From Chloroflexota bacterium (GTDB lineage: Bacteria > Chloroflexota > Dehalococcoidia > Lucifugimonadales > GCA-002723415), in NCBI GenBank assembly GCA_002723415.1, contig PBOA01000031.1, forward strand, positions 23,991 to 87,990: a stretch of DNA of 64,000 nt, written 5' to 3'. This document shows positions 16,031-48,736 of the stretch, one piece after another; position 1 is the first letter of the stretch; every line of letters begins with the position of its first letter. Made by a program: the position numbers and the translations under genes. A model generated the notes under the pieces. It saw only the letters and a program-made list of their open reading frames with translations. It did no database searches and was not told the origin of the DNA.

Positions 16031-16507
16031 TTAAATTAATTTTTTATTTATATTTTTTAAAACTAATTGAGGTACTAAATTATCGATTTTTCCCCCAAGT
16101 TTTGCTACTTCTTTAATTCTACTTGAAAAAACAAATTGGTAAGATAAAGAACTCATCATGCATACTACATCAATATCTGGAGCTAAATTTCTCCACATTA
16201 ATGCCATTTCAAATTCTTGTTCAAAATCAAATCCGGCTCTTAAACCTCTTATTATAAATTCAGCATTTATTTTGCGTGCAAAATTTGGTGCAAGCTCAGT
16301 AAAAGGTACAACTTCAATGTTTTTATAATCTTTAATAGATTCAGAAAACATTTCGATTCTTTCATTGGTATTGAACATTAGGTTTTTTAAAGGTTTATCA
16401 TAGACAGCAACTGTTAATTTTTCAAACAATTTTGAAGCTCTAATTGCGATATCTAAATGTCCATTATGAACTGGATCAAAACTTCCAGGGTATATAGCTT
16501 TAGCCAT
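16031..16507 (-). CDS. coaD: Phosphopantetheine adenylyltransferase
   Basis: YPGSFDPVHNGH, IRGLR and SSRIKE. Confidence 0.97.
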   Translation of the reverse strand: MAKAIYPGSFDPVHNGHLDIAIRASKLFEKLTVAVYDKPLKNLMFNTNERIEMFSESIKDYKNIEVVPFTELAPNFARKINAEFIIRGLRAGFDFEQEFEMALMWRNLAPDIDVVCMMSSLSYQFVFSSRIKEVAKLGGKIDNLVPQLVLKNINKKLI

Positions 16508-17061
16508 TATATTCCTTTTTTATATATAGAGATTGCACTATCTCCGTATTTTCTTTTTGATATAGATTTAATTTCTTTGAATTCCGATTGTATATTTAAC
16601 TGATGTTTATGTTCTATTATTAAAATTCCTTTGTCATCTAATACATCCTGTTTATATATGTTTTCTATCAATTCTTTTGAATTGAATGAATCGTAAGGAG
16701 GATCTGCAAATATTAATTCGTATTTATTATTTAAATCTTTTAAAGATTTTATAGCATCACCTAGTTTTATATTAAATGTATTAGATAACATTAGGTCAGA
16801 CATGTTTTTTTTAATTTGACCTATATTTTTTGTATTAATTTCTATCATATCTGCCCAGCTTGCCCCCCTGCTTAAAGCTTCTATGCTAAAAATACCTGTT
16901 CCTGCATATAGTTCTAGGATTTTAATGTTTTTTAAAAATTCATTTCCTAAAATTGAAAAAATAGCAAGTCTTAGTTTTTCAGTAGTTGGCCTTAATTGAG
17001 GATTTTTTTGTACTTTTATATATTTACCTTTATGTTTCCCGCCTGTTATTTTAAGTTGCAT
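16507..17061 (-). CDS. rsmD: 16S rRNA m2G966 methyltransferase
   Basis: ITGGKHKG, LRPT, LYAGTG, EALSRGA and DPPY. Confidence 0.95.
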   Translation of the reverse strand: MQLKITGGKHKGKYIKVQKNPQLRPTTEKLRLAIFSILGNEFLKNIKILELYAGTGIFSIEALSRGASWADMIEINTKNIGQIKKNMSDLMLSNTFNIKLGDAIKSLKDLNNKYELIFADPPYDSFNSKELIENIYKQDVLDDKGILIIEHKHQLNIQSEFKEIKSISKRKYGDSAISIYKKGI

Positions 17062-17237
17062 ATAAAATTTATTTAGTTAAATAATAATTATTTTGTAATA
17101 TGCTAGCATGCATAATTCATAAATTAAAAGTAGAATTAGGTCCAATTTTTTATAAATATAAGAAAAGTATAATATTCTTTTTTCATGCTCTAGTGTATAA
17201 TTTGGTAAAAATAAATTTTAATAAAATTGGTGCTAAA

Positions 17238-17864
17238 ATGGAAAAAATTACAGTATTTTATGATTATTCTTGACCATTTGTATATAACGCAACAGTTTGG
17301 TTGCAATATGTTAAATATAGAAAAAAAGAACTTATTTTGGATTGGCGACATTTTCAATTAGAAAAGATTAAAAACCCAGATGAATCTAATATTAACTGGA
17401 ATGATCTAGATTTACAAAAATCTAGATCATTGCTAACTGCAATATCAGCAGAAGCAGCAAAATTACAAGGGCCTAGATTGTTTGACCTTTATCATTCAGC
17501 TATCCTTGATTCTAGACATAATAAACAACCTAGATTAGTTCTTAATAATCTTGATGGATTAATTGATATAGCAGTTGAAGTTGGGCTGAATAAAAATAAA
17601 TTTGTTAATGATATTAATAATCAAAATTTAGTTAATATTGTTGAAAAGGATCACAAAGAAGCTGTTGAAAGATATGGTGTTTTTGGTACTCCTACTTTAA
17701 TATTTGATAATAACCAAAGTGTATTTGTTAAAACATTTATTCCTGGAAATAAGAAAGATTATATTCTATTTTTTGATTATATATTAAAAGTTTTTAGAGA
17801 TATGCCATTTGTAGGAGAATTAAAAAGACCTCAACCACCTTGGCCTAAAGGTTTAAGAAAATAA
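17238..17864 (+). CDS. DsbA-like thioredoxin-fold selenoprotein (Sec12, TGA at 17271-17273), 208 aa
   Basis: ATG 17238 reads MEKITVFYDYS-TGA-PFVYNATVWLQ, in frame with track ORF 17301-17864. The TGA sits at the Cys of the FDxxCP motif; cis-Pro motif GVFGTPT; downstream hairpin. Confidence 0.85.
17285..17313 (+). promoter_or_regulatory. Candidate bacterial SECIS (DsbA-like gene)
   Basis: GCAAC(17289-93)/GTTGC(17300-04) stem with loop AGTTTG 20 nt after the UGA, G at loop position 2; lower TAAC/GTTA stem. Confidence 0.6.
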
Positions 17865-17874
17865 GGTATTTAAA

Positions 17875-18597
17875 TTGAAAAAGAATTTAAAAATTTTACA
17901 AGATAATTTAGGTATTTTTTTTAATGATCAAAAACTTTTAGAATTAGCACTTGTACATTCATCTTTTATAAATGAAAATCCTGAAATTCATGAAATTTCT
18001 AATGAACGTTTAGAGTTTCTTGGAGATGCATTAATTGGAATGTATTTGGCAGAATATGGTTATAAAAATCTTTCAAATTATGATCAAGGTGACCTTACTT
18101 TATTTAGATCTGCATTAGCAAGACGTAAAACATTAGCTATGATTGCCAAATCATTTAATTTAGGTCTTTTTCTCTTTATAGGTAAAGGAGAAGAAAAATC
18201 TTTGGGTAGAGAAAAAGAATCTAACTTGTCGGATGTTTTTGAAGCAATTGTTGGGGCAATATATATTGACCAAGGTTTTATTGTTACATTTGAATTTTTG
18301 AATAAAACTTTTAGTGATAAAATCAATAATATTATTAATTTAAGAGAATTTAAAGATTCAAAATCAATATTACAAGAATTAGTCCAGCAAAAAGGTTATT
18401 TATCTCCAGTTTATGAAGTCATTGAAATAATTGAAAAAGGTAAAGATAAAATATTTGTTGTAGAAGTTAGAATTGGCCATAAAAAAAATCATTTAAAATC
18501 TTATGGTGTTGGCCAAGCTAATAAGATATCTTTAGCAGAATTTGAGGCAGCTATTAAAGCTATAAATTTTTTTAATACCAAAATAAATACTTTTTAG
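17875..18597 (+). CDS. rnc: Ribonuclease III
   Basis: SNERLEFLGDA, SDVFEAIVGAIY and a C-terminal dsRBD (DSKSILQE). Confidence 0.97.
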   Translation: MKKNLKILQDNLGIFFNDQKLLELALVHSSFINENPEIHEISNERLEFLGDALIGMYLAEYGYKNLSNYDQGDLTLFRSALARRKTLAMIAKSFNLGLFLFIGKGEEKSLGREKESNLSDVFEAIVGAIYIDQGFIVTFEFLNKTFSDKINNIINLREFKDSKSILQELVQQKGYLSPVYEVIEIIEKGKDKIFVVEVRIGHKKNHLKSYGVGQANKISLAEFEAAIKAINFFNTKINTF

Positions 18598-18622
18598 TAA
18601 ATTTAATTTATATGACTAGGAT

Positions 18623-19870
18623 TTAAAGAAAATCTGTATTAATTAAAGAGAAGTTTTTTGTTAACTCTAATACTTGTTCCTTGATTCGTTTACTTAAATC
18701 TATATCTTGATGATTTATAAGTGATTCAGTAATTAATTTAGATAATTGTTTTATTGCTGTATTATCAAAACCTCGAGTAGTTATTGATGGGGTACCAAGT
18801 CTTAATCCACTAGCTATGCTTGGAGGGTTAGTGTCAAACGGGATTGCATTTCTATTTACTACAATATTTACTTTACTTAATATTTCTTCAGCATCTTTGC
18901 CTGTGATTTTAAGAGGACTTAAGTCAATTAATATCATATGGTTGTCAGTACCTCCAGATACTAGTCTTAAATCAGATTTATTTAATTCAGATGCTAGAGT
19001 TTGGGCATTATTTTTTATTGATTTTTGGTATTCAATAAACTTGTTTGACTTTGCTTCATGAAATGCTACAGCTTTAGCTGCTATAGTATGCATCATTGGA
19101 CCGCCTTGTGCATTAGGAAATACTGCTCGGTCAATATTCTTTTGAAGGTTTTCTTTTGACAATATAATGCCGCCTCTAGGTCCTCTCAGAGTTTTATGTG
19201 TTGTGGATGTAACAATATCAGCATAACCTATTGGTGAAGGGTGTTGGTCAGCTGCAATAAGACCCGAAATATGTGACATGTCAACCATTAATTTAGCGTT
19301 AATTTCATCAGCTACTTTTTTAAATTTAGCGAAATCTATTGTTCTTGTATATGCAGTAGCTCCTGCAACAATTAATTTTGGCTTGTGTTCTAATGCTAAA
19401 TTGAGTACTTCTTCATAGTCAATTAGCTCAGATTCTCTATCTACTTTGTAGCTAACAAAATTATATAATTTGGAAGAAAAATTGACTTTACTCCCATGAG
19501 TCAGGTGCCCTCCATGCGCTAAATCCATTCCAAGTACTGTGTCTCCTGGTTTTAAAACTGCAAAATAAGCTGCCATATTGGCTTGTGCTCCACTATGAGG
19601 TTGTACGTTAACGTGTTCTGCATTAAATAAGTCTTTTGCTCGCTTAATTGCTAAATTTTCTACTTCATCTACAAATTCACAGCCTCCATAATACCTTTTG
19701 CCTGGATAGCCTTCAGCATACTTGTTTGTCATAACAGAACTTTGAGCTTCTCTAACTGCTTTACTAACAAAATTTTCTGACGCTATTAAATTTATATTAT
19801 TTTCTTGTCGGATAATTTCTTTTTTTATAGCAGAATTTACCTCAGGGTCCCAGTTAGTTAAGCTAGACAT
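18623..19870 (-). CDS. glyA: Serine hydroxymethyltransferase
   Basis: [20 protein letters not shown] and [12 protein letters not shown]. Confidence 0.99.
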
Positions 19871-21532: not shown

Positions 21533-22738
21533 ATGTCGAAAATTGCTTTTGTTAGTATGCATGTTTGTCCATTAGGAAAATTGGGTGAAGATAAAATAGG
21601 TGGAATGAATGTATATATAATGAATTTGGCTACTGCATTAACTAAATTAGGTTATGAGATAGATATTTATACTCGTAAACATGATATTAAAGACCCTGTA
21701 ATAGTTAAAACCGATCAAAATATCAGAATCATTCATTTGGATGCAGGCCCTGTTTTAGAAAATAATAATCATTTATATAAATATATAGATGATTTTACGA
21801 ATAATATTATTGAATTTAATTTAAATGAAAAAAATGAATATAAAATTATTCATAGTCATTATTGGTTGTCTGGGCCAGTTGGGGCCGTTTTAAAAGATAC
21901 ATGGGGAATACCTCATTTAATTACTTTTCACACTTTATCTGCAATCAAATTAAAAGCTTCTCCTAGTATAGTTGAGCATCAGCAAAGGTATAAAGTTGAA
22001 AAAAATACAATGAACAAAGTTGATTCTATAATTGTTTCAACTCAATCTGAATTAGATGACATAGTGGATTTGTATAATATCCCAGATAAAAAGATTCAAG
22101 TTATTCCACCTGGAGTTGATTTAGAATTATTTAAACCCTTAAATAAAATAGAATCCAAAAAAAAATTAGGATTAAATAATCGTAATATAATTCTTTATGT
22201 TGGTCGAATTGATCCTATAAAAGGATTATATACATTATTAGATTCGGTATTTAACATAAATACGAAATATGATCCTAAACTTATATTGATTGGAGGTGAT
22301 TTGAATAAAAGTCAAGATTTAATTGAATTGAAAAATTATACATTTAAAAAAGGTAAATCAGATGTTGTAGATTTTGTGGGCTTGATAGATCAATCTGATC
22401 TGCCTATTTATTATAATGCAGCAGAAGTATTTCTTTTAACTTCATTTTATGAAAGTTTTGGTTTGTCTGTTTTAGAATCATTAGCATGTGGAACTCCAGC
22501 TATAGTATCAAATGTAGGTGGTTTATCTGAGTTGATAGATAATGGAACTAATGGTTATTTAGTGTCCGAAAATAATGCTCGAAGTTTTACAAATCATATA
22601 GAAGCATTTTTTGAAAACGAACGTATGAAAAACTCATCAATAAATATTAGACTTAAAGCAGAGAGTTACCAGTGGTCAAAATCAGCAAAAAATATGTCTA
22701 ATATTTATACTAAAATTTTTGATGGGAGCTTAAATTGA
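21533..22738 (+). CDS. GT4 glycosyltransferase, MshA-like
   Basis: SMHxCPLG..GGMNVY, HSHYWLSG, VGRIDPIKG and YESFGLSVLESLACG resemble MshA. Confidence 0.85.
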   Translation: MSKIAFVSMHVCPLGKLGEDKIGGMNVYIMNLATALTKLGYEIDIYTRKHDIKDPVIVKTDQNIRIIHLDAGPVLENNNHLYKYIDDFTNNIIEFNLNEKNEYKIIHSHYWLSGPVGAVLKDTWGIPHLITFHTLSAIKLKASPSIVEHQQRYKVEKNTMNKVDSIIVSTQSELDDIVDLYNIPDKKIQVIPPGVDLELFKPLNKIESKKKLGLNNRNIILYVGRIDPIKGLYTLLDSVFNINTKYDPKLILIGGDLNKSQDLIELKNYTFKKGKSDVVDFVGLIDQSDLPIYYNAAEVFLLTSFYESFGLSVLESLACGTPAIVSNVGGLSELIDNGTNGYLVSENNARSFTNHIEAFFENERMKNSSINIRLKAESYQWSKSAKNMSNIYTKIFDGSLN

Positions 22739-22739
22739 A

Positions 22740-23405
22740 ATGAATGATAAAAAATATGATAAACAAAATAGTTTAATCAATAAATTAGAATCACATGTTT
22801 TCAGTAGGATATTAGCCGGTTTTATAATTTTGATTCCATTATTGGTAACTATTTTAATTTTATTATTTTTATTTTATAGTATAGATGATATTTTTAGAGG
22901 AGAAAGAGGCTTTTTTAGTCCATTTATAAATGGAACTAGATTAGATTTTCCAGGAATTGGTGTTGTTATTTCTATAGTTATTTTTTATTTAATTGGTCTA
23001 TTAGTTGGAGGACGATTAGGTAGAAGAATATCAGCTATAGAACGAACAACTTTGATGTGGATTCCTTTAGTTGGTACGATTTATGGATTGATGAGACAAA
23101 TTACTGAAACTTTATCTGCTCCTGTAACCAATAGATTTAACAGAGTAGTATTTATTGAATGGCCTAGACCAGGTTATATGGCAATTGGTTTTGTGACAGG
23201 ACAATTTTTTGATAAAGAAAAAAATAATGTAACTTTGGTAGTCTATGTGCCAACTGTTCCAAACCCTACTTCAGGTAATTTAGCTTTTGTGCCTGAAAAA
23301 GATGTAGTGGAAGCTGATTTAAATGTTGAAGAAGCCATGAAATTAGTTTTTTCAGGAGGTATAGTAATACCAGAAAATTTAAAAACTATTGTGGATAAGG
23401 ATTAG
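22740..23405 (+). CDS. DUF502 membrane protein
   Basis: N-terminal TM helices, VVFIEWPRPG and YVPTVPNPTSG. Confidence 0.9.
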   Translation: MNDKKYDKQNSLINKLESHVFSRILAGFIILIPLLVTILILLFLFYSIDDIFRGERGFFSPFINGTRLDFPGIGVVISIVIFYLIGLLVGGRLGRRISAIERTTLMWIPLVGTIYGLMRQITETLSAPVTNRFNRVVFIEWPRPGYMAIGFVTGQFFDKEKNNVTLVVYVPTVPNPTSGNLAFVPEKDVVEADLNVEEAMKLVFSGGIVIPENLKTIVDKD

Positions 23406-24313
23406 TTCGATATTTCCTTTTCGTACCACCATATTTCAGATGACTTATTAAATCCTAGTTTCTTGTAAATTTGTAATGCCTTAATGTTGTTTGAATCTAC
23501 TTCAAGTTCTACAGTTGAATGGTTATTGTTAAATAAATATTCTATACCTTTACCTACTAATATATTGCCGAGTCCTTTTGACCTGAATTGTGGTAGTATG
23601 CCAGTCATAGAAATTTTACCGGATTTGTTTTTATAGGTTGTCCAATTATAACCAACATATTCCTGTCTGTTTTTTAATATAATTATACCTTCTGGTTTTG
23701 TATTATGCATTTTTATTCTATATTTAATTTCTTCTGTTGTATTTGGACAAAAGCCCCAGCTGTCTTTAAAGACAGAATTTTGTAATTTAGTAAGTTTCTC
23801 TTCATCGTTGTCTTGAAGAAATGTTGAAAAGAAAAAATCATTGGGGGGTTCTAAATTTATAACAGGCATTTTTTTTAATTGCATATTGAAATATATTTTA
23901 ATTTTTTTAAAATTAAAATTTGTTAAAGAATTTTGTATTGATTTGTCATATTCACTAGTTTGAATATTTAATTTTTCTGTATGTAAAGATGAAGCTAATT
24001 CTAAAGCTTTACGGATTATTTTTGTTTGATTTTCATCGTTTTTGTGTAGCTTTAATATTTTAATATCTAATATAACTCTGTTTATAAATTTTTCTTCATT
24101 AAATGATATATATCCAATTGGTTCATTGTTATTGTTTGAAATAAGAAATAAATTTTTTTGGGGATTAAAAGAAGGATATGATAATTTTTCTTTTATATCG
24201 GAAAGGTTATATTTATAATTATTTTTATTGTCTAATGCTAATCTATTTAGCAAATTAGTATAATCATCTATATGCTGCCATGAAAAAGTCTTGTAATTTA
24301 AAGATATTGTCAA
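23402..24313 (-). CDS. Tandem-GNAT acetyltransferase, MshD-like
   Basis: Two GNAT lobes: FKDSWG, GILPQFRSKGLG and LEVDSNNIKALQIYKKLGF. Confidence 0.75.
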   Translation of the reverse strand: MTISLNYKTFSWQHIDDYTNLLNRLALDNKNNYKYNLSDIKEKLSYPSFNPQKNLFLISNNNNEPIGYISFNEEKFINRVILDIKILKLHKNDENQTKIIRKALELASSLHTEKLNIQTSEYDKSIQNSLTNFNFKKIKIYFNMQLKKMPVINLEPPNDFFFSTFLQDNDEEKLTKLQNSVFKDSWGFCPNTTEEIKYRIKMHNTKPEGIIILKNRQEYVGYNWTTYKNKSGKISMTGILPQFRSKGLGNILVGKGIEYLFNNNHSTVELEVDSNNIKALQIYKKLGFNKSSEIWWYEKEISN

Positions 24314-31508: not shown

Positions 31509-31769
31509 ATGTCATTTAAATCTAAAATAAATATTGAAATAAAATATTGTGTGCCTTGAGGCTACCATGCAGTTGCAGCCTGGATGGTTGTAGAATTTTA
31601 TAGTGTTGGAGCAGGTAATATTTCCATTACATTGACTCCTGGAGATTCTGGTGTATTAAAAGTCGTCTTAGATGATCAAGTCATTTATGACAAAAAAGAA
31701 GAAAATGGTGAAACTCCAACTTTGACTCGAATGAAAGAATTGAAAGCAATAGTTAAATCAAAATTATAA
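31509..31769 (+). CDS. Rdx (SelW/SelT/SelH) family selenoprotein, CxxU motif (TGA 31557-31559), 86 aa
   Basis: ATG 31509 reads MSFKSKINIEIKYCVP-TGA-GY, in frame with track ORF 31584-31769. IxYCxxUGY is the Rdx signature, and the C-terminal half fits the family. Confidence 0.92.
31574..31592 (+). promoter_or_regulatory. Candidate bacterial SECIS (Rdx gene)
   Basis: TGCAGCC/GGTTGTA 7-bp stem (two G-U pairs) with loop TGGAT 21 nt after the UGA, G at loop position 2. Confidence 0.55.
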
Positions 31770-42911: not shown

Positions 42912-43005
42912 ATAGTATAATTATATATATACGTATTATTGCTATTTGCGATAGGCCTATGTTATAGTCGAAAATTATATATAGAAAATTTTGTGAGGTA
43001 TAAAT

Positions 43006-43572
43006 ATCAGTAGAGATTATAGAGCAAATGAAAATATAAAAGTTCCTGAAGTTAGAGTTATTGATGATAAAGGTGAACAACTTGGTGTAATGACTTTGAG
43101 AAGGGCCTTGGATCTTGCTGATGCAAAAAACCTTGATTTGGTGGAAGTAGCTCCGGGATCTAAACCTCCTGTATGTAGGTTGTTGGACTATGGTAAATTC
43201 AGATATAAAGCTACTAGAAAAGAACGAGAAGCTCGTAAATCACGTAAATCTAATCTCACAAATGAAGTTAAAGAAATAAGATTTAAAACTAGAATTGGAG
43301 AACATGATAGATCTTCAAAAATAAGGATGATAAAAAGGATTTTATCGCAAGGAAATAAGGTTAAAGTAAGTGTTATGTTCCGCGGAAGGGAAATGATGCA
43401 TCCAGATATAGGAATGAAGTTGCTAAGATCAGTTGCTGAAGATTTGATTGATGATGCTTTATTAGATAAACCTCCATTATTTGAAGGTAGAAATATATAT
43501 ATGATACTTGCACCCGTTATTAATACTGATAAATCTGTAAAAACAAAGGAATTAAATAGTGCCCAAACTTAA
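43006..43572 (+). CDS. infC: Translation initiation factor IF-3, non-canonical ATC start
   Basis: GAGGT(42995-99), 6 nt, then ATC AGT AGA GAT TAT AGA GCA AAT GAA (RANENIKVPEVRVID), in frame with track ORF 43090; LDLVEVAP and DYGKFRY. Confidence 0.93.
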   Translation: MSRDYRANENIKVPEVRVIDDKGEQLGVMTLRRALDLADAKNLDLVEVAPGSKPPVCRLLDYGKFRYKATRKEREARKSRKSNLTNEVKEIRFKTRIGEHDRSSKIRMIKRILSQGNKVKVSVMFRGREMMHPDIGMKLLRSVAEDLIDDALLDKPPLFEGRNIYMILAPVINTDKSVKTKELNSAQT

Positions 43573-46927: not shown

Positions 46928-48736
46928 TCAATGAGGGTCGTTAACTGGTTCAAAAGACCAAGCATAAACTCCAATCATTGTAATTGCAGCACCAATAATT
47001 GCTACTGGTATGCTTAAAATTATTCCGAAACCACCAATTAGTAATCCAACTGATGCAATAAATGGCCAATATGATGGTTGTGGTAAATGTACATCTTTTG
47101 ATACTGGTTGCTCTTGAGCTTTTTTCAGCATCTTTTTTTCCCACCAATCATCCCTGTATTCTATTGTTGGAATAACAGCAAAATTGTATTCAGGAGGAGG
47201 TGAGGTAATTGACCATTCAAGAGTTCTAGCATCCCAAGGGTCACCAGATGCTTTAGCACCTTTAATCCAACTTGAAACAATATTGTAAATGAATATAACC
47301 ATTGAAGCTGCGAGTAATAATACTCCTATAGTTGAAATTAGATTCCAAAAATCCCAACCATATTCACTTCCATAAGTATATATTCTGCGAGGCATTCCGT
47401 TTAAGCCAGTAAAATGCATAGGGAAAAAAGTAATGTTCATAGAAATGAAAAAAGCGTAAAATCCTAATTTACCAAGTTTTTCATCATACATTCTTCCAGT
47501 AAATTTAGGGAACCAGTAATAAATTCCACCTAATATTGCAATTAAGCTGCCACCAAAAAGTACATAATGAATATGGGCAACAATAAAATAAGTATCTTGT
47601 TGTTGAGCATCAGATGCAGCTTGAGAGTGCATTACTCCACTTATTCCGCCAATTGTAAATGTTAATATGAAGCCTATAGCATATAGCATAGGGGTATTAA
47701 GTGTTAATGAGCCTCTCCACATGGTTCCGAGCCAATTGAAAATTTTTACACCAGTAGGAATTGCTATAGCCATAGTTGTAAGAGCAAAAACTGAATTAGC
47801 TACAGGACCTAGGCCTACAGTAAACATATGGTGACTCCATACCATCCATCCCATAAAACCTATTATAATACCTGAAAGTATAACAACAGGGTAGCCAAAT
47901 AAAGGTTTTTTAGAGAAAGTAGGCAATATTTCAGATACTATTCCCATTGCAGGTAAAATTAAAATATAAACTTCTGGGTGTCCAAAAACCCAAAACAGGT
48001 GTTGCCATAGTACGGGATTTCCTCCTGCAGAAGTTATGAAAAAATTGGTTCCATAAAATCTATCAAATTGTAATTCTATCAAAGCTACAGTTATTACAGG
48101 AAAAGCTAGTACTAATAGAATTGCAGTTATAAATGACATCCATGTGAATACAGGTAATCTTGAGAAGGTCATACCTGGAGCTCGCATATTTATAATTGTT
48201 ACTATGAAATTAAAAGCAGCCGCTAGAGAAGCTATTCCTAAAACTTGTAAACTAATTATCCAAAAATCAATTCCGTGGCCTACATTATATGCTTTACCCG
48301 TAATTGGAGCATATCCAAACCATCCCGCGTTAGGTGCTCCTCCTAAAAACCAACTAGCATTTAATATTATTGCACCTGCTAAAAAAGTCCAATAACTAAA
48401 AGCATTTAATCTTGGAAATGCAACATCTCTTGCTCCAATTTGTAGAGGTATCAGATAGTTAAAAAATGCTGCTCCCATAGGCATTATTGCTAAAAATATC
48501 ATTGTTGTCCCATGCATTGTAAATAATTGGTTGTAAAGCTCTGGGTCAATTATTTTTAAGTTTGATGAAGCCAATTGAGCACGCATAAGCATAGCTTCTA
48601 TACCACCAATTATAAATAGAATAAATGCTGAAACCCCATATAATATACCTATTTTTTTGTGATCAATAGTTGTGATCCAATTCCAAATTCCAGTTGGGTG
48701 TATAGGTCTAGATATTTGTAATGGGAAAGTTGTCAT
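46928..48736 (-). CDS. ctaD: Cytochrome c oxidase subunit I (A1-type heme-copper oxidase)
   Basis: TMHGTTMIF, ARDVAFPRLN, GHPEVY, WSHHM and AHIHYV. Confidence 0.99.
   Translation of the reverse strand: MTTFPLQISRPIHPTGIWNWITTIDHKKIGILYGVSAFILFIIGGIEAMLMRAQLASSNLKIIDPELYNQLFTMHGTTMIFLAIMPMGAAFFNYLIPLQIGARDVAFPRLNAFSYWTFLAGAIILNASWFLGGAPNAGWFGYAPITGKAYNVGHGIDFWIISLQVLGIASLAAAFNFIVTIINMRAPGMTFSRLPVFTWMSFITAILLVLAFPVITVALIELQFDRFYGTNFFITSAGGNPVLWQHLFWVFGHPEVYILILPAMGIVSEILPTFSKKPLFGYPVVILSGIIIGFMGWMVWSHHMFTVGLGPVANSVFALTTMAIAIPTGVKIFNWLGTMWRGSLTLNTPMLYAIGFILTFTIGGISGVMHSQAASDAQQQDTYFIVAHIHYVLFGGSLIAILGGIYYWFPKFTGRMYDEKLGKLGFYAFFISMNITFFPMHFTGLNGMPRRIYTYGSEYGWDFWNLISTIGVLLLAASMVIFIYNIVSSWIKGAKASGDPWDARTLEWSITSPPPEYNFAVIPTIEYRDDWWEKKMLKKAQEQPVSKDVHLPQPSYWPFIASVGLLIGGFGIILSIPVAIIGAAITMIGVYAWSFEPVNDPH

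What the first reader, a model, noticed from the sequence alone, without database searches (positions are those of the whole stretch)
17238..17864. Second hidden selenoprotein: DsbA-like protein with a single-Sec UPFV active site
Seen: MEKITVFYDYS-TGA-PFVY is in frame with the 187-aa track ORF, the TGA sits where DsbA/FrnE-like proteins have the first Cys of CxxC, and a GCAAC/GTTGC hairpin has its loop 20 nt downstream. The resolving position is Val, and the translated sequence has no Cys anywhere. Inference: a mono-selenol oxidoreductase that needs an external resolving thiol. No signal peptide is visible, so it would be cytoplasmic, unlike true DsbA.
Basis: partly seen in the sequence, partly recalled or inferred. 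Interest (0 to 1): 0.75.

Follow-up and report, generated by a model that had tools for sequence, protein, structure and literature searches.

The report
Single-selenocysteine DsbA-like protein gene
The gene at 17238-17864 really does encode a small cytoplasmic redox protein whose only reactive residue is a selenocysteine written as an in-frame TGA, but marine surveys listed this protein family years ago, so the case is sound rather than new.

Summary
ATG 17238 opens a 208-codon frame with one in-frame TGA (17271-17273). A GCAAC/GUUGC hairpin has its loop 20 nt downstream. The residue at +3 is Val, and the protein has no Cys.

Comparative evidence shows the TGA is decoded:
- In 85 homologous genes from 80 Dehalococcoidia/SAR202 genomes plus the window, the aligned codon is TGA in 80 and TGT (Cys) in 5. 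The preceding 11-13 codons and the start codon are conserved.
- Synonymous sites are nearly frozen only from +12 to +35 nt after the TGA, over a conserved hairpin that fits the bacterial SECIS model.
- TGA is an ordinary stop elsewhere in the window.
- A SelW-like (CxxU) selenoprotein gene lies at 31509-31769.

The protein has a DSBA-fold thioredoxin domain. Its closest solved relative is the single-Cys DsbA-like protein DR2335 of Deinococcus radiodurans (PDB 7DK9), whose function is unknown.

The likely mechanism is inferred, not shown. A selenolate at the N-cap of helix 1 attacks a disulfide or oxidised sulfur, and the selenenylsulfide is resolved by an external thiol.

The family is not new. 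The 2008 GOS selenoproteome lists "DsbA 3, pfam01323, UxxV", and a 2026 review lists "DsbA-like form 2, DxxUP". What this work adds is its prevalence in marine Dehalococcoidia and its systematic mis-annotation: about 112 of the 120 best database homologs are truncated.

The parts
17238..17864 (+). Complete coding sequence of the DsbA-like selenoprotein: 208 codons plus stop, with Sec at codon 12.
   Evidence: Pfam DSBA, residues 4-171, 58.3 bits. The start position agrees with 80 homologous genes. The upstream ATG at 17100 (ORF 17100..17273) is not supported by homologs.
17271..17273 (+). In-frame TGA read as selenocysteine. This is the catalytic residue of a UPFV motif at the N-cap of helix alpha-1.
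   Evidence: The column is TGA in 80 and TGT in 5 of 85 homologs. It aligns to Cys24 of DR2335 (PDB 7DK9; C24S mutant 7DKA). In the AlphaFold model of the Cys homolog P0005, Cys14 sits between strand 4-10 and helix 15-31.
17289..17304 (+). Core of the SECIS hairpin: 5-bp stem GCAAC/GUUGC with the 6-nt loop AGUUUG (G at loop position 2). The loop starts 20 nt after the UGA.
   Evidence: core -6.1 kcal/mol. The same register is conserved in 76 distinct sequences (A2 columns 22-37), with a G-C to A-U double change at pair 25/34 in the window, L001 and L080. Third-codon-position conservation is 0.80-1.00 at +12..+35, against 0.3-0.6 at most other codons.
17276..17316 (+). Extended predicted stem-loop, adding lower helices around the core hairpin.
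   Evidence: The MFE of UGA..+50 is -8.7 kcal/mol, with lower stems 17276-17286 and 17307-17316. The lower stems are not conserved across the family, so this extension is tentative.
17875..18597 (+). RNase III gene (rnc), 10 nt downstream on the same strand. It is the conserved neighbour and is probably co-transcribed.
   Evidence: NCBIfam TIGR02191, 196 bits against a cut-off of 166. The same downstream neighbour is present in 64 of 81 loci. No terminator-like site lies between the two genes.

Best explanation
The region 17238-17864 is a genuine selenoprotein gene. During translation, the UGA at 17271 is recoded to selenocysteine by SelB and Sec-tRNA. These are recruited by the hairpin immediately downstream, whose loop starts 20 nt after the UGA. 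The product is a 208-residue cytoplasmic protein with the DsbA-type fold, a thioredoxin fold with an inserted helical domain. Its only redox-active residue is Sec12 in the motif D-x-x-U-P-[FYW]-V, at the N-terminus of helix alpha-1. That is the position where CxxC oxidoreductases carry their attacking cysteine. The position of the second, resolving cysteine is Val.

The most likely chemistry is inferred, not shown. The selenolate attacks a disulfide, a mixed disulfide with a low-molecular-weight thiol, or an oxidised sulfur or other electrophilic substrate. This forms an enzyme selenenylsulfide, which a second, external thiol then resolves. That thiol could be a low-molecular-weight thiol or a thioredoxin-like partner. 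The scheme parallels monothiol glutaredoxins and mycoredoxins, and the Cys-type relatives of kappa and omega GSTs.

Shown: the gene structure, the recoding signature, the fold and the active-site position. Inferred: the Sec insertion itself, the thiol-exchange mechanism, and the identity of the substrate and reductant.
For: - The TGA column is conserved. It is TGA in 80 and TGT in 5 of 85 genes from 80 species-level Dehalococcoidia/SAR202/Chloroflexota genomes plus the window. The upstream peptide and the start codon are also conserved.
- There is an RNA-level constraint. Third-position conservation is 0.80-1.00 only between +12 and +35 after the TGA. The hairpin is kept in 86% of cells against 25-51% in slid registers, 4 pairs show double changes, and covariation is above all 500 shuffles. 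RNAalifold recovers the 4-bp core. The five Cys-form genes have variable synonymous sites there.
- The hairpin meets the published bSECIS constraints: loop 3-9 nt, stem of at least 4 bp, G in the first two loop positions, and spacing 16-37 nt (PMC13188914; measurements).
- The genetic code is standard. Seven of 54 long ORFs end in TGA, none has an internal TGA, and Trp is written TGG 242 times.
- A second, canonical selenoprotein gene lies in the window. It is SelW-like (Rdx, PF10262, 54.8 bits) with a CVPU motif and a hairpin loop 21 nt after its UGA.
- The fold is supported. Pfam DSBA matches at 1.1e-15. The family profile hits PDB 7DK9 at 2e-22 over the full length. The AlphaFold model of the Cys homolog has pLDDT 93.7 and TM 0.79 to DR2335.
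- There is no conserved second Cys. C12 is the only invariant Cys column, and about half of the Sec forms have no other Cys.
Against: - No selA, selB, selD or tRNA-Sec lies in the 64-kb window. The machinery for this particular genome is therefore assumed.
- Covariation in the hairpin is thin. The hairpin overlies the conserved peptide NA[AT]VWL, most pairs are simply invariant, and the G-C to A-U double change occurs in three related sequences.
- The core hairpin alone (-6.1 kcal/mol) misses the -7.5 kcal/mol criterion. That criterion is met only when non-conserved lower stems are included (-8.7).
- No member of the family, including the crystallised DR2335, has a reported activity (PMC8945050). 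The neighbourhood (glnA, amt, rnc) offers no redox partner.
- The structure was modelled on a 41%-identical Cys homolog, not on the window protein itself.
Confidence: 0.85

Rival explanations
1. The TGA is an ordinary stop. The real gene is the 187-residue ORF from TTG 17301, and the upstream 11 codons are non-coding or a separate mini-ORF.
For: This is how almost all public gene calls treat the family: about 112 of the 120 best database homologs start downstream of the TGA. TGA is a functional stop elsewhere in the window.
Against: The upstream peptide, the start codon position and the reading frame are conserved in 80 genomes, with invariant D and P flanking the TGA column. Five genomes and several metagenomic homologs have Cys there. 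The truncated product would lack strand beta-1 and the active-site turn that the DSBA domain and the solved homolog 7DK9 require.
Confidence: 0.02
2. The organism uses an alternative genetic code in which TGA is a sense codon (Trp in code 4, Gly in code 25), so the residue is Trp or Gly, not Sec.
For: The window is only 26-36% G+C. Three public gene calls (P0001-P0003) translate this TGA as W.
Against: Fifty-four long ORFs cover 92% of the window under code 11 with no internal TGA. Seven of them end in TGA, and Trp is TGG 242 times. The homologous codon is Cys, never Trp or Gly, in the non-TGA forms. High-G+C Dehalococcoidia have the same TGA. The W calls are best explained by a gene caller choosing code 4 on short AT-rich contigs (inference).
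Confidence: 0.01
3. It is a true selenoprotein with a different chemistry. One option is a low-molecular-weight-thiol-dependent transferase, isomerase or reductase of small molecules, like kappa-class GST or HCCA isomerase, or the mycothiol-dependent Rv2466c. Another is a peroxidase-type enzyme in which Sec is oxidised by a peroxide. In either case it would not be a protein thiol-disulfide oxidoreductase.
For: The N-terminal motif FYDYS-U-PFVY resembles the F-D-x-x-S-P-Y-S-W/Y motif of kappa GST/HCCA isomerase, where a Ser occupies the U position (my own knowledge, not tested here). Kappa GST, HCCA isomerase and Rv2466c are fold neighbours (TM 0.58-0.70), and Rv2466c aligns over the full length with the family profile (2e-7). 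Nearly invariant basic residues (R63, R93, H94, R99, K165, K196, R197) would suit an anionic small-molecule ligand (inference). Three family clusters are fused to dephospho-CoA kinase.
Against: No ligand, substrate or partner gene is indicated by the conserved neighbourhood. Sequence similarity to kappa GST/HCCA isomerase is weak: 3FZ5 scores 2e-5 with the profile over a partial region. No experimental data exist for any member.
Confidence: 0.25
4. It is a decaying pseudogene or an assembly error that created a stop codon in a formerly Cys-containing gene.
For: One relative (P0036 / L082) does have a scrambled N-terminus next to a transposase gene.
Against: The same TGA occurs in 80 independent genomes. 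The downstream frame is intact and conserved, and the RNA hairpin is maintained. An ENA contig encodes a 98%-identical copy with the same TGA (P0001).
Confidence: 0.01

Closest known systems
GOS selenoprotein group 'DsbA 3' (pfam01323, motif UxxV; Zhang & Gladyshev 2008, PMC2398784) and 'DsbA-like protein form 2' (PF01323, motif DxxUP; review PMC13188914)
   Same: It has the same Pfam domain, the same marine origin and a single Sec with Val at +3 (UPFV). The invariant columns of the family here are exactly D-x-x-U-P.
   Different: The literature gives only table rows: no taxonomic assignment to Dehalococcoidia/SAR202, no SECIS description and no function. [quoted passage not shown]
DR2335 of Deinococcus radiodurans, a single-Cys DsbA-like protein (PDB 7DK9 native, 7DKA C24S)
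   Same: It is the best sequence match (2e-22, full length) and the best structural match (TM 0.79, about 30% identity). It has a single active-site Cys in CPYA at the column of the Sec, no resolving Cys, a C-terminal [IL]-[KR]-R-P motif, and it is cytoplasmic.
   Different: It has Cys instead of Sec and about 20 extra residues. It comes from a different phylum, and the tail lacks the PQPPWPKG extension. Its function is also unknown (PMC8945050).
'DsbA-like' selenoproteins of the Sargasso Sea / 'DsbA 1' (UxxC; COG2761 FrnE-like)
   Same: It is a selenoprotein with a DSBA domain, with Sec at the first position of the redox motif (PMC1088965).
   Different: Those keep the resolving Cys (UxxC) and can form an intramolecular selenenylsulfide. 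The window protein has Val there and no other Cys.
Rv2466c of Mycobacterium tuberculosis (DsbA-like, mycothiol-dependent reductase; PDB 4NXI, 4ZIL, 5XUR)
   Same: It is a cytoplasmic DsbA-fold protein that aligns over the full length with the family profile (2e-7) and as a fold neighbour (TM 0.65-0.70). It works with a low-molecular-weight thiol (my knowledge of the literature).
   Different: It has a CPWC motif with both cysteines, it is not a selenoprotein, and sequence identity is about 20%.
Periplasmic DsbA (E. coli type)
   Same: It shares the overall DsbA fold, and the cis-Pro loop is preceded by Thr (FGTPT).
   Different: The window protein has no signal peptide, no CPHC motif and no second Cys. 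It is therefore cytoplasmic and cannot act as a disulfide donor in the DsbA/DsbB manner.

Membership tests
Bacterial selenoprotein gene (Sec-UGA plus bSECIS) | In-frame UGA that aligns with Cys in homologs, with coding conservation on both sides | tested here: met
   80 TGA and 5 TGT among 85 genes, with the upstream peptide and start codon conserved. Cys forms include P0005, P0067 and P0116.
Bacterial selenoprotein gene (Sec-UGA plus bSECIS) | Stem-loop directly downstream with a 3-9 nt apical loop, an upper stem of at least 4 bp, G in the first two loop positions, and 16-37 nt between UGA and the loop (criteria from PMC13188914) | tested here: met
   The loop AGUUUG is 6 nt with G at position 2, the stem is 5 bp and the spacing is 20 nt. 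The family consensus is GCAGCC-GUGU-GGCUG with spacing 21 nt.
Bacterial selenoprotein gene (Sec-UGA plus bSECIS) | MFE of the element at or below -7.5 kcal/mol | tested here: inconclusive
   The MFE is -8.7 kcal/mol for UGA..+50 including non-conserved lower stems, and -6.1 for the conserved core alone. The G+C-rich family consensus folds at -19.2.
Bacterial selenoprotein gene (Sec-UGA plus bSECIS) | selA, selB, selD and tRNA-Sec present in the same genome | not testable with these tools
   None lies in the 64-kb window, and the rest of the genome is not available. Indirect support comes from a SelW-like Sec gene in the window and from Dehalococcoidia MAGs with 46-49 selenoproteins (PMC13326102).
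Bacterial selenoprotein gene (Sec-UGA plus bSECIS) | Selenium actually incorporated at the UGA | not testable with these tools
   This needs 75Se labelling or mass spectrometry.
DSBA-like thioredoxin domain (Pfam PF01323) | Profile match above the gathering score across the domain | tested here: met
   58.3 bits against a cut-off of 25.6, residues 4-171 on profile positions 2-180 of 191.
DSBA-like thioredoxin domain (Pfam PF01323) | Thioredoxin fold with an inserted helical domain, and the active site at the N-cap of helix 1 | tested here: met
   AlphaFold model of the Cys homolog P0005: pLDDT 93.7, strand 4-10, Cys14, helix 15-31, helical insert 44-150, strands 157-167. TM 0.79 to 7DK9. The model is of a 41%-identical homolog, not of the window protein.
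Classical dithiol DsbA/FrnE oxidoreductases | CxxC (or UxxC) motif with a resolving Cys | tested here: not met
   The +3 residue is Val or Ala in all 85 genes, and no other conserved Cys column exists.
Periplasmic DsbA | N-terminal signal peptide and export | tested here: not met
   Sec is residue 12 (typically residue 14 in homologs), and the chain starts with strand beta-1.
Single-Cys DsbA-like family (DR2335 type) | Full-length homology to DR2335, with the single Cys/Sec at the Cys24 column and the C-terminal [IL]-[KR]-R-P motif | tested here: met
   The profile matches 7DK9 at 2e-22 over positions 6-204 against 22-230. CPfv aligns with CPYA, and ElkRPqpp aligns with TIRRPVPK.
GOS 'DsbA 3' (UxxV) / 'DsbA-like form 2' (DxxUP) selenoproteins | PF01323 domain with the motif UxxV / DxxUP | tested here: met
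   The window motif is D-Y-S-U-P-F-V, and D, U and P are invariant family columns. The literature rows were read.
GOS 'DsbA 3' (UxxV) / 'DsbA-like form 2' (DxxUP) selenoproteins | Direct sequence similarity to the catalogued members | not testable with these tools
   The catalogued sequences (GOS reads, MDP6049977.1) could not be retrieved. NCBIfam has no model for the family: the best hit is NF041057 at 26 bits against a cut-off of 190.
Kappa-class GST / HCCA isomerase | Catalytic Ser in the S-P-Y-S motif and a glutathione-binding site | tested here: not met
   Sec/Cys occupies the Ser column. There is only a weak partial profile match (3FZ5, 2e-5) and fold-level similarity of TM about 0.6. 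Glutathione binding was not tested.

The most novel reading that the evidence does not exclude
The family could be a selenium-dependent enzyme of coenzyme-A-linked or other low-molecular-weight-thiol redox metabolism, for example one that removes CoA or another small thiol from modified proteins, in bacteria that lack glutathione. If so, it would be a near-universal and so far unannotated component of the redox system of marine SAR202/Dehalococcoidia. The hints are: three independent family clusters fused to dephospho-CoA kinase; the coaD gene two genes away in the window; several nearly invariant basic residues; and MshA- and MshD-like genes 4-6 kb downstream in the window, both below their curated cut-offs.
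Probability: 0.12. Interest if true: 0.6.

Novelty: new member of a known kind. Interest (0 to 1): 0.3.

Why it matters
The immediate value is for annotation. The family is present in at least 80 species-level Dehalococcoidia/SAR202 genomes, and the scan confirmed 501 related stretches in all. Yet about 112 of the 120 best database homologs are truncated and lack their active site, and three more read the codon as Trp. No NCBIfam model exists that would make annotation pipelines call the Sec.

Biologically, the protein is a monoselenol enzyme with no resolving cysteine. It is maintained as Sec (80 of 85) in an abundant group of ocean bacteria. This suggests a reaction where selenium gives a real advantage, and it ties part of the redox metabolism of these organisms to selenium supply. 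The reaction itself is unknown, even for the crystallised Cys homolog DR2335, so the family is a defined and tractable target for biochemistry. It does not open a new category: single-Sec thioredoxin-fold proteins and this very motif are already in the selenoprotein catalogues.

Tried and rejected
I modelled the natural Cys homolog P0005 instead.
- Paper searches for the PDB codes 7DKA/7DK9 and for DR2335 found no functional study, only two Deinococcus reviews.
- Cluster look-up of ten homologs returned no source names or accessions.
- The supplements of Peng et al. 2016 mention only 'DsbA-like protein' without the form-2 motif.
- The Rfam gathering scan found only the tRNA-Lys, and ARAGORN found no tRNA-Sec.
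- The promoter/terminator scan of 16950-18700 gave no more sites than shuffles.
- A systematic look for other ORFs preceded by an in-frame TGA gave only this gene, plus two trivial cases: the infC upstream region, and the cox gene junction at 46928.
- The odd homolog P0036 (VPCVY) looked like a Cys-shifted variant. It turned out to be a copy with a scrambled N-terminus next to a transposase gene.
- Long multi-stretch hits (P0208, P0283) are tandem canonical CPFC/CPYC DsbA repeats, not this subfamily.
- Neighbourhood analysis gave housekeeping synteny only (glnA, amt, rnc, glyA) and no redox partner.
- I considered and rejected an alternative genetic code, an ordinary stop and a pseudogene (see rivals).

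Full report
**1. The observation**

- An ATG at 17238 opens a frame that reads MEKITVFYDYS, then TGA at 17271-17273. It continues in the same frame as PFVYNATVWLQYV... through the 187-aa ORF that a mechanical ORF finder starts at TTG 17301, and it ends at TAA 17862-17864.
- The 208-residue read-through product has no cysteine, and the residue three positions after the TGA is Val.
- The hairpin GCAAC (17289-17293) / AGUUUG / GUUGC (17300-17304) begins its loop exactly 20 nt after the UGA. The surrounding 66 nt fold at -12.5 kcal/mol, z = -2.37 against dinucleotide shuffles.
- With Cys substituted for the TGA, Pfam's DSBA domain (PF01323) matches residues 4-171 at 58.3 bits against a gathering score of 25.6. 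The domain therefore needs the residues upstream of the TGA.

**2. Is the TGA decoded?**

A protein search returned homologs whose database sequences almost all begin at 'MWLD...' or 'MHNAAVWLD...', just downstream of the position of the TGA. Of the 120 best, 4 are natural Cys forms: P0005 ACPYVY, P0067 and P0085 LCPFVF, P0116 GCPYVF. Three translate the TGA as Trp (P0001-P0003). About 112 are N-terminally truncated.

Scanning one genome per species gave 501 confirmed stretches. The 80 best are all Dehalococcoidia, SAR202 or other Chloroflexota, and tblastn matched across the TGA from query residue 1-6. Translating these loci shows 85 family genes including the window and four tandem duplicates. 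Of these, 80 have TGA and 5 have TGT (L030, L038, L046, L056, L074) at the same column, inside the motif D-[YF]-x-U-P-[FYW]-[VA]-[YHF]-N-[AT]-A-V-W-L. An ATG lies typically 13 codons upstream of it. The residue at +3 is always Val or Ala, and 45 or so of the Sec forms contain no cysteine at all. In a 30-sequence full-length alignment the only invariant Cys column is the Sec column, flanked by invariant D9 and P13.

**3. The RNA element**

Per-column conservation of the 80 Sec-form genes shows that third codon positions are 0.80-1.00 conserved from +12 to +35 after the TGA, against 0.3-0.6 at most other codons. That is the signature of a constraint on the mRNA rather than on the protein.

The constrained stretch forms AUGCAGCC-GUGU-GGCUGGAU in most genomes. 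In the window, L001 and L080 it forms GCAAC-(A/G)GU(U/C)UG-GUUGC in the same register.
- RNAalifold recovers the four central pairs.
- On the eight-pair helix that I specified, 86% of cells pair, against 25-51% when the 3' arm is slid by 1-3 columns.
- Four pairs show changes on both sides, and the covariation score exceeds all 500 shuffles.

The window itself carries a G-C to A-U double change at pair 25/34. It also repairs the G-G mismatch at 22/37 to G-C.

The five Cys-form genes vary freely at these synonymous sites.

The element meets the published bacterial SECIS constraints (PMC13188914): a 6-nt loop, G at loop position 2, a 5-bp stem and 20-nt spacing. The energy criterion of -7.5 kcal/mol is met only with non-conserved lower stems (-8.7), and the core alone gives -6.1. 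I rate that one feature as inconclusive. The covariation is real but thin, because the hairpin overlies a conserved peptide and the double change is seen in three related sequences.

**4. Alternative readings**

The window uses the standard code. Fifty-four long ORFs cover 92% of it with no internal TGA, seven of them end in TGA, and Trp is TGG 242 times. The 'W' in three public proteins is therefore a gene-calling artefact on AT-rich contigs (inference).

No tRNA-Sec, selA, selB or selD lies in the window. However, a second selenoprotein gene does, at 31509-31769 (+). It is an 86-residue SelW-like protein (Rdx family, PF10262, 54.8 bits) with the canonical C-V-P-U motif, TGA at 31557. Its hairpin UGCAGCC-UGGAU-GGUUGUA has a loop starting 21 nt after the UGA. 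Its 5' arm resembles the family consensus of the DsbA-like SECIS.

The literature independently records marine Dehalococcoidia MAGs with 46-49 selenoprotein genes (PMC13326102).

An ordinary stop, an alternative code and a pseudogene are therefore each very unlikely.

**5. What the protein is**

The family profile finds PDB 7DK9 at 2e-22 over its whole length. CPfv aligns to C24-P-Y-A, and the C-terminal E-l-k-R-P-q-p-p aligns to T-I-R-R-P-V-P-K. 7DKA is the same protein with that Cys changed to Ser.

An AlphaFold model of the natural Cys homolog P0005 (41% identical to the window protein) is confident: pLDDT 93.7, pTM 0.89. It places Cys14 between strand 4-10 and helix 15-31, which is the classical thioredoxin-fold active-site position.

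Foldseek identifies 7DK9/7DKA as 'DsbA-like protein DR2335 from Deinococcus radiodurans', native and C24S, at TM 0.79. Next come Rv2466c (0.65-0.70), FrnE, kappa GSTs and HCCA isomerase (about 0.6).

A Deinococcus review notes DR_2335 as a DsbA-like protein with a single conserved Cys and no functional data (PMC8945050). I found no paper on its activity.

An exhaustive profile search finds 4053 cluster representatives at E <= 1e-3 and 96 at E <= 1e-30. Many are Cys forms with CP[YF]x[YFWH] and, as a rule, no second Cys in the motif.

**6. How it most likely works**

Shown:
- a recoded UGA with a SECIS-like hairpin;
- a DsbA fold;
- Sec at the attacking position, Val at the resolving position, and no other conserved Cys;
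- no signal peptide.

Inferred: the selenolate attacks a disulfide, a mixed disulfide or an oxidised or electrophilic substrate, and the selenenylsulfide is resolved by an external thiol. This is a monothiol mechanism, as in monothiol glutaredoxins and mycoredoxins.

A small-molecule transferase, isomerase or reductase role in the manner of kappa GST, HCCA isomerase or Rv2466c, or a peroxidase-type role, cannot be excluded. I give these together about 0.25.

The conserved neighbourhood gives no partner. RNase III follows 10 nt downstream in the window and is the downstream neighbour in 64 of 81 loci. Glutamine synthetase lies upstream in 54 loci and an ammonium transporter in 16.

**7. Comparison with what is known, and novelty**

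The Sargasso Sea 'DsbA-like' selenoproteins are UxxC (PMC1088965) and so differ in keeping the resolving Cys. The GOS selenoproteome of 2008, however, lists 'DsbA 3, pfam01323, UxxV', with 5 Sec sequences and 72 Cys homologs (PMC2398784). A 2026 review lists 'DsbA-like protein form 2, PF01323, DxxUP' (PMC13188914). Both motifs are exactly what the window shows.

I could not retrieve those sequences, so sequence-level identity is untested. The most economical reading is still that the family has been catalogued since 2008.

This analysis adds several points:
- the family's assignment to Dehalococcoidia/SAR202 and its prevalence there;
- the strong preference for Sec over Cys (80 of 85);
- a description of its SECIS;
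- the link to the solved DR2335 structure;
- the extent of mis-annotation, with no NCBIfam model (best hit 26 bits against a cut-off of 190).

**8. Verdict**

The finding is real and correctly interpreted. It is a new member of a known, functionally uncharacterised selenoprotein family. Interest is modest (0.3): a specialist would not be surprised, but the family is a clean target for biochemistry and for annotation repair.

Noticed in passing
window 31509-31769 (+), TGA at 31557-31559: This is an unannotated SelW-like selenoprotein gene of 86 residues with the motif C-V-P-U, sitting in what looks like a 455-nt intergenic gap. Pfam Rdx (PF10262) scores 54.8 bits with U set to C. The hairpin UGCAGCC-UGGAU-GGUUGUA has its loop 21 nt after the UGA.
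   Followed up: yes
L081 4001-5272; proteins P0154, P0156, P0224: Three family clusters, each less than 50% identical to the others, are fusions of dephospho-CoA kinase (Pfam CoaE) with the single-Cys DSBA domain. In the window, coaD (16031-16507, minus strand) lies two genes upstream of the selenoprotein gene. This may hint at a link to coenzyme A.
   Followed up: partly
window 21533-22738 (+) and 23402-24313 (-): A GT4 glycosyltransferase has MshA as its best NCBIfam hit (291 bits, below the 462 cut-off; BshA scores only 116). A GNAT protein has MshD as its best hit (69 bits, below the 163 cut-off). This could be a mycothiol-like small-thiol or pseudo-disaccharide pathway 4-6 kb from the selenoprotein gene. 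It is not conserved next to the family in other loci.
   Followed up: partly
L017 (2129 and 2914), L022 (2230 and 3028), L023 (2069 and 3028), L025 (2240 and 3028): Four genomes carry two tandem paralogs of the gene. Both copies have the in-frame TGA and the same SECIS hairpin.
   Followed up: no
L082 290-2130 (protein P0036): One relative has a transposase gene (Transposase_mut) directly upstream and a scrambled N-terminus (…DVTAVPCVY…) without the TGA. It is likely a disrupted copy.
   Followed up: partly
proteins P0001-P0003 (ENA gene calls): Public gene calls on AT-rich contigs translate the Sec codon as Trp, and one adds a spurious 46-residue N-terminal extension. This suggests that a gene caller chose genetic code 4 for these contigs.
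   Followed up: no
window 42912-43089, upstream of ORF 43090-43572: The IF3-like ORF appears to extend upstream of its first ATG/GTG/TTG: the conserved-looking peptide GINISRDYRANENIKVPEVR lies upstream. This is consistent with the unusual start codon typical of infC.
   Followed up: no
80 loci and window 17875-18597: The gene order glnA (or amt) on the opposite strand, then the DsbA-like selenoprotein gene, then rnc, is conserved across most marine Dehalococcoidia loci (rnc in 64, glnA in 54, amt in 16). This is housekeeping synteny without an obvious functional link.
   Followed up: partly
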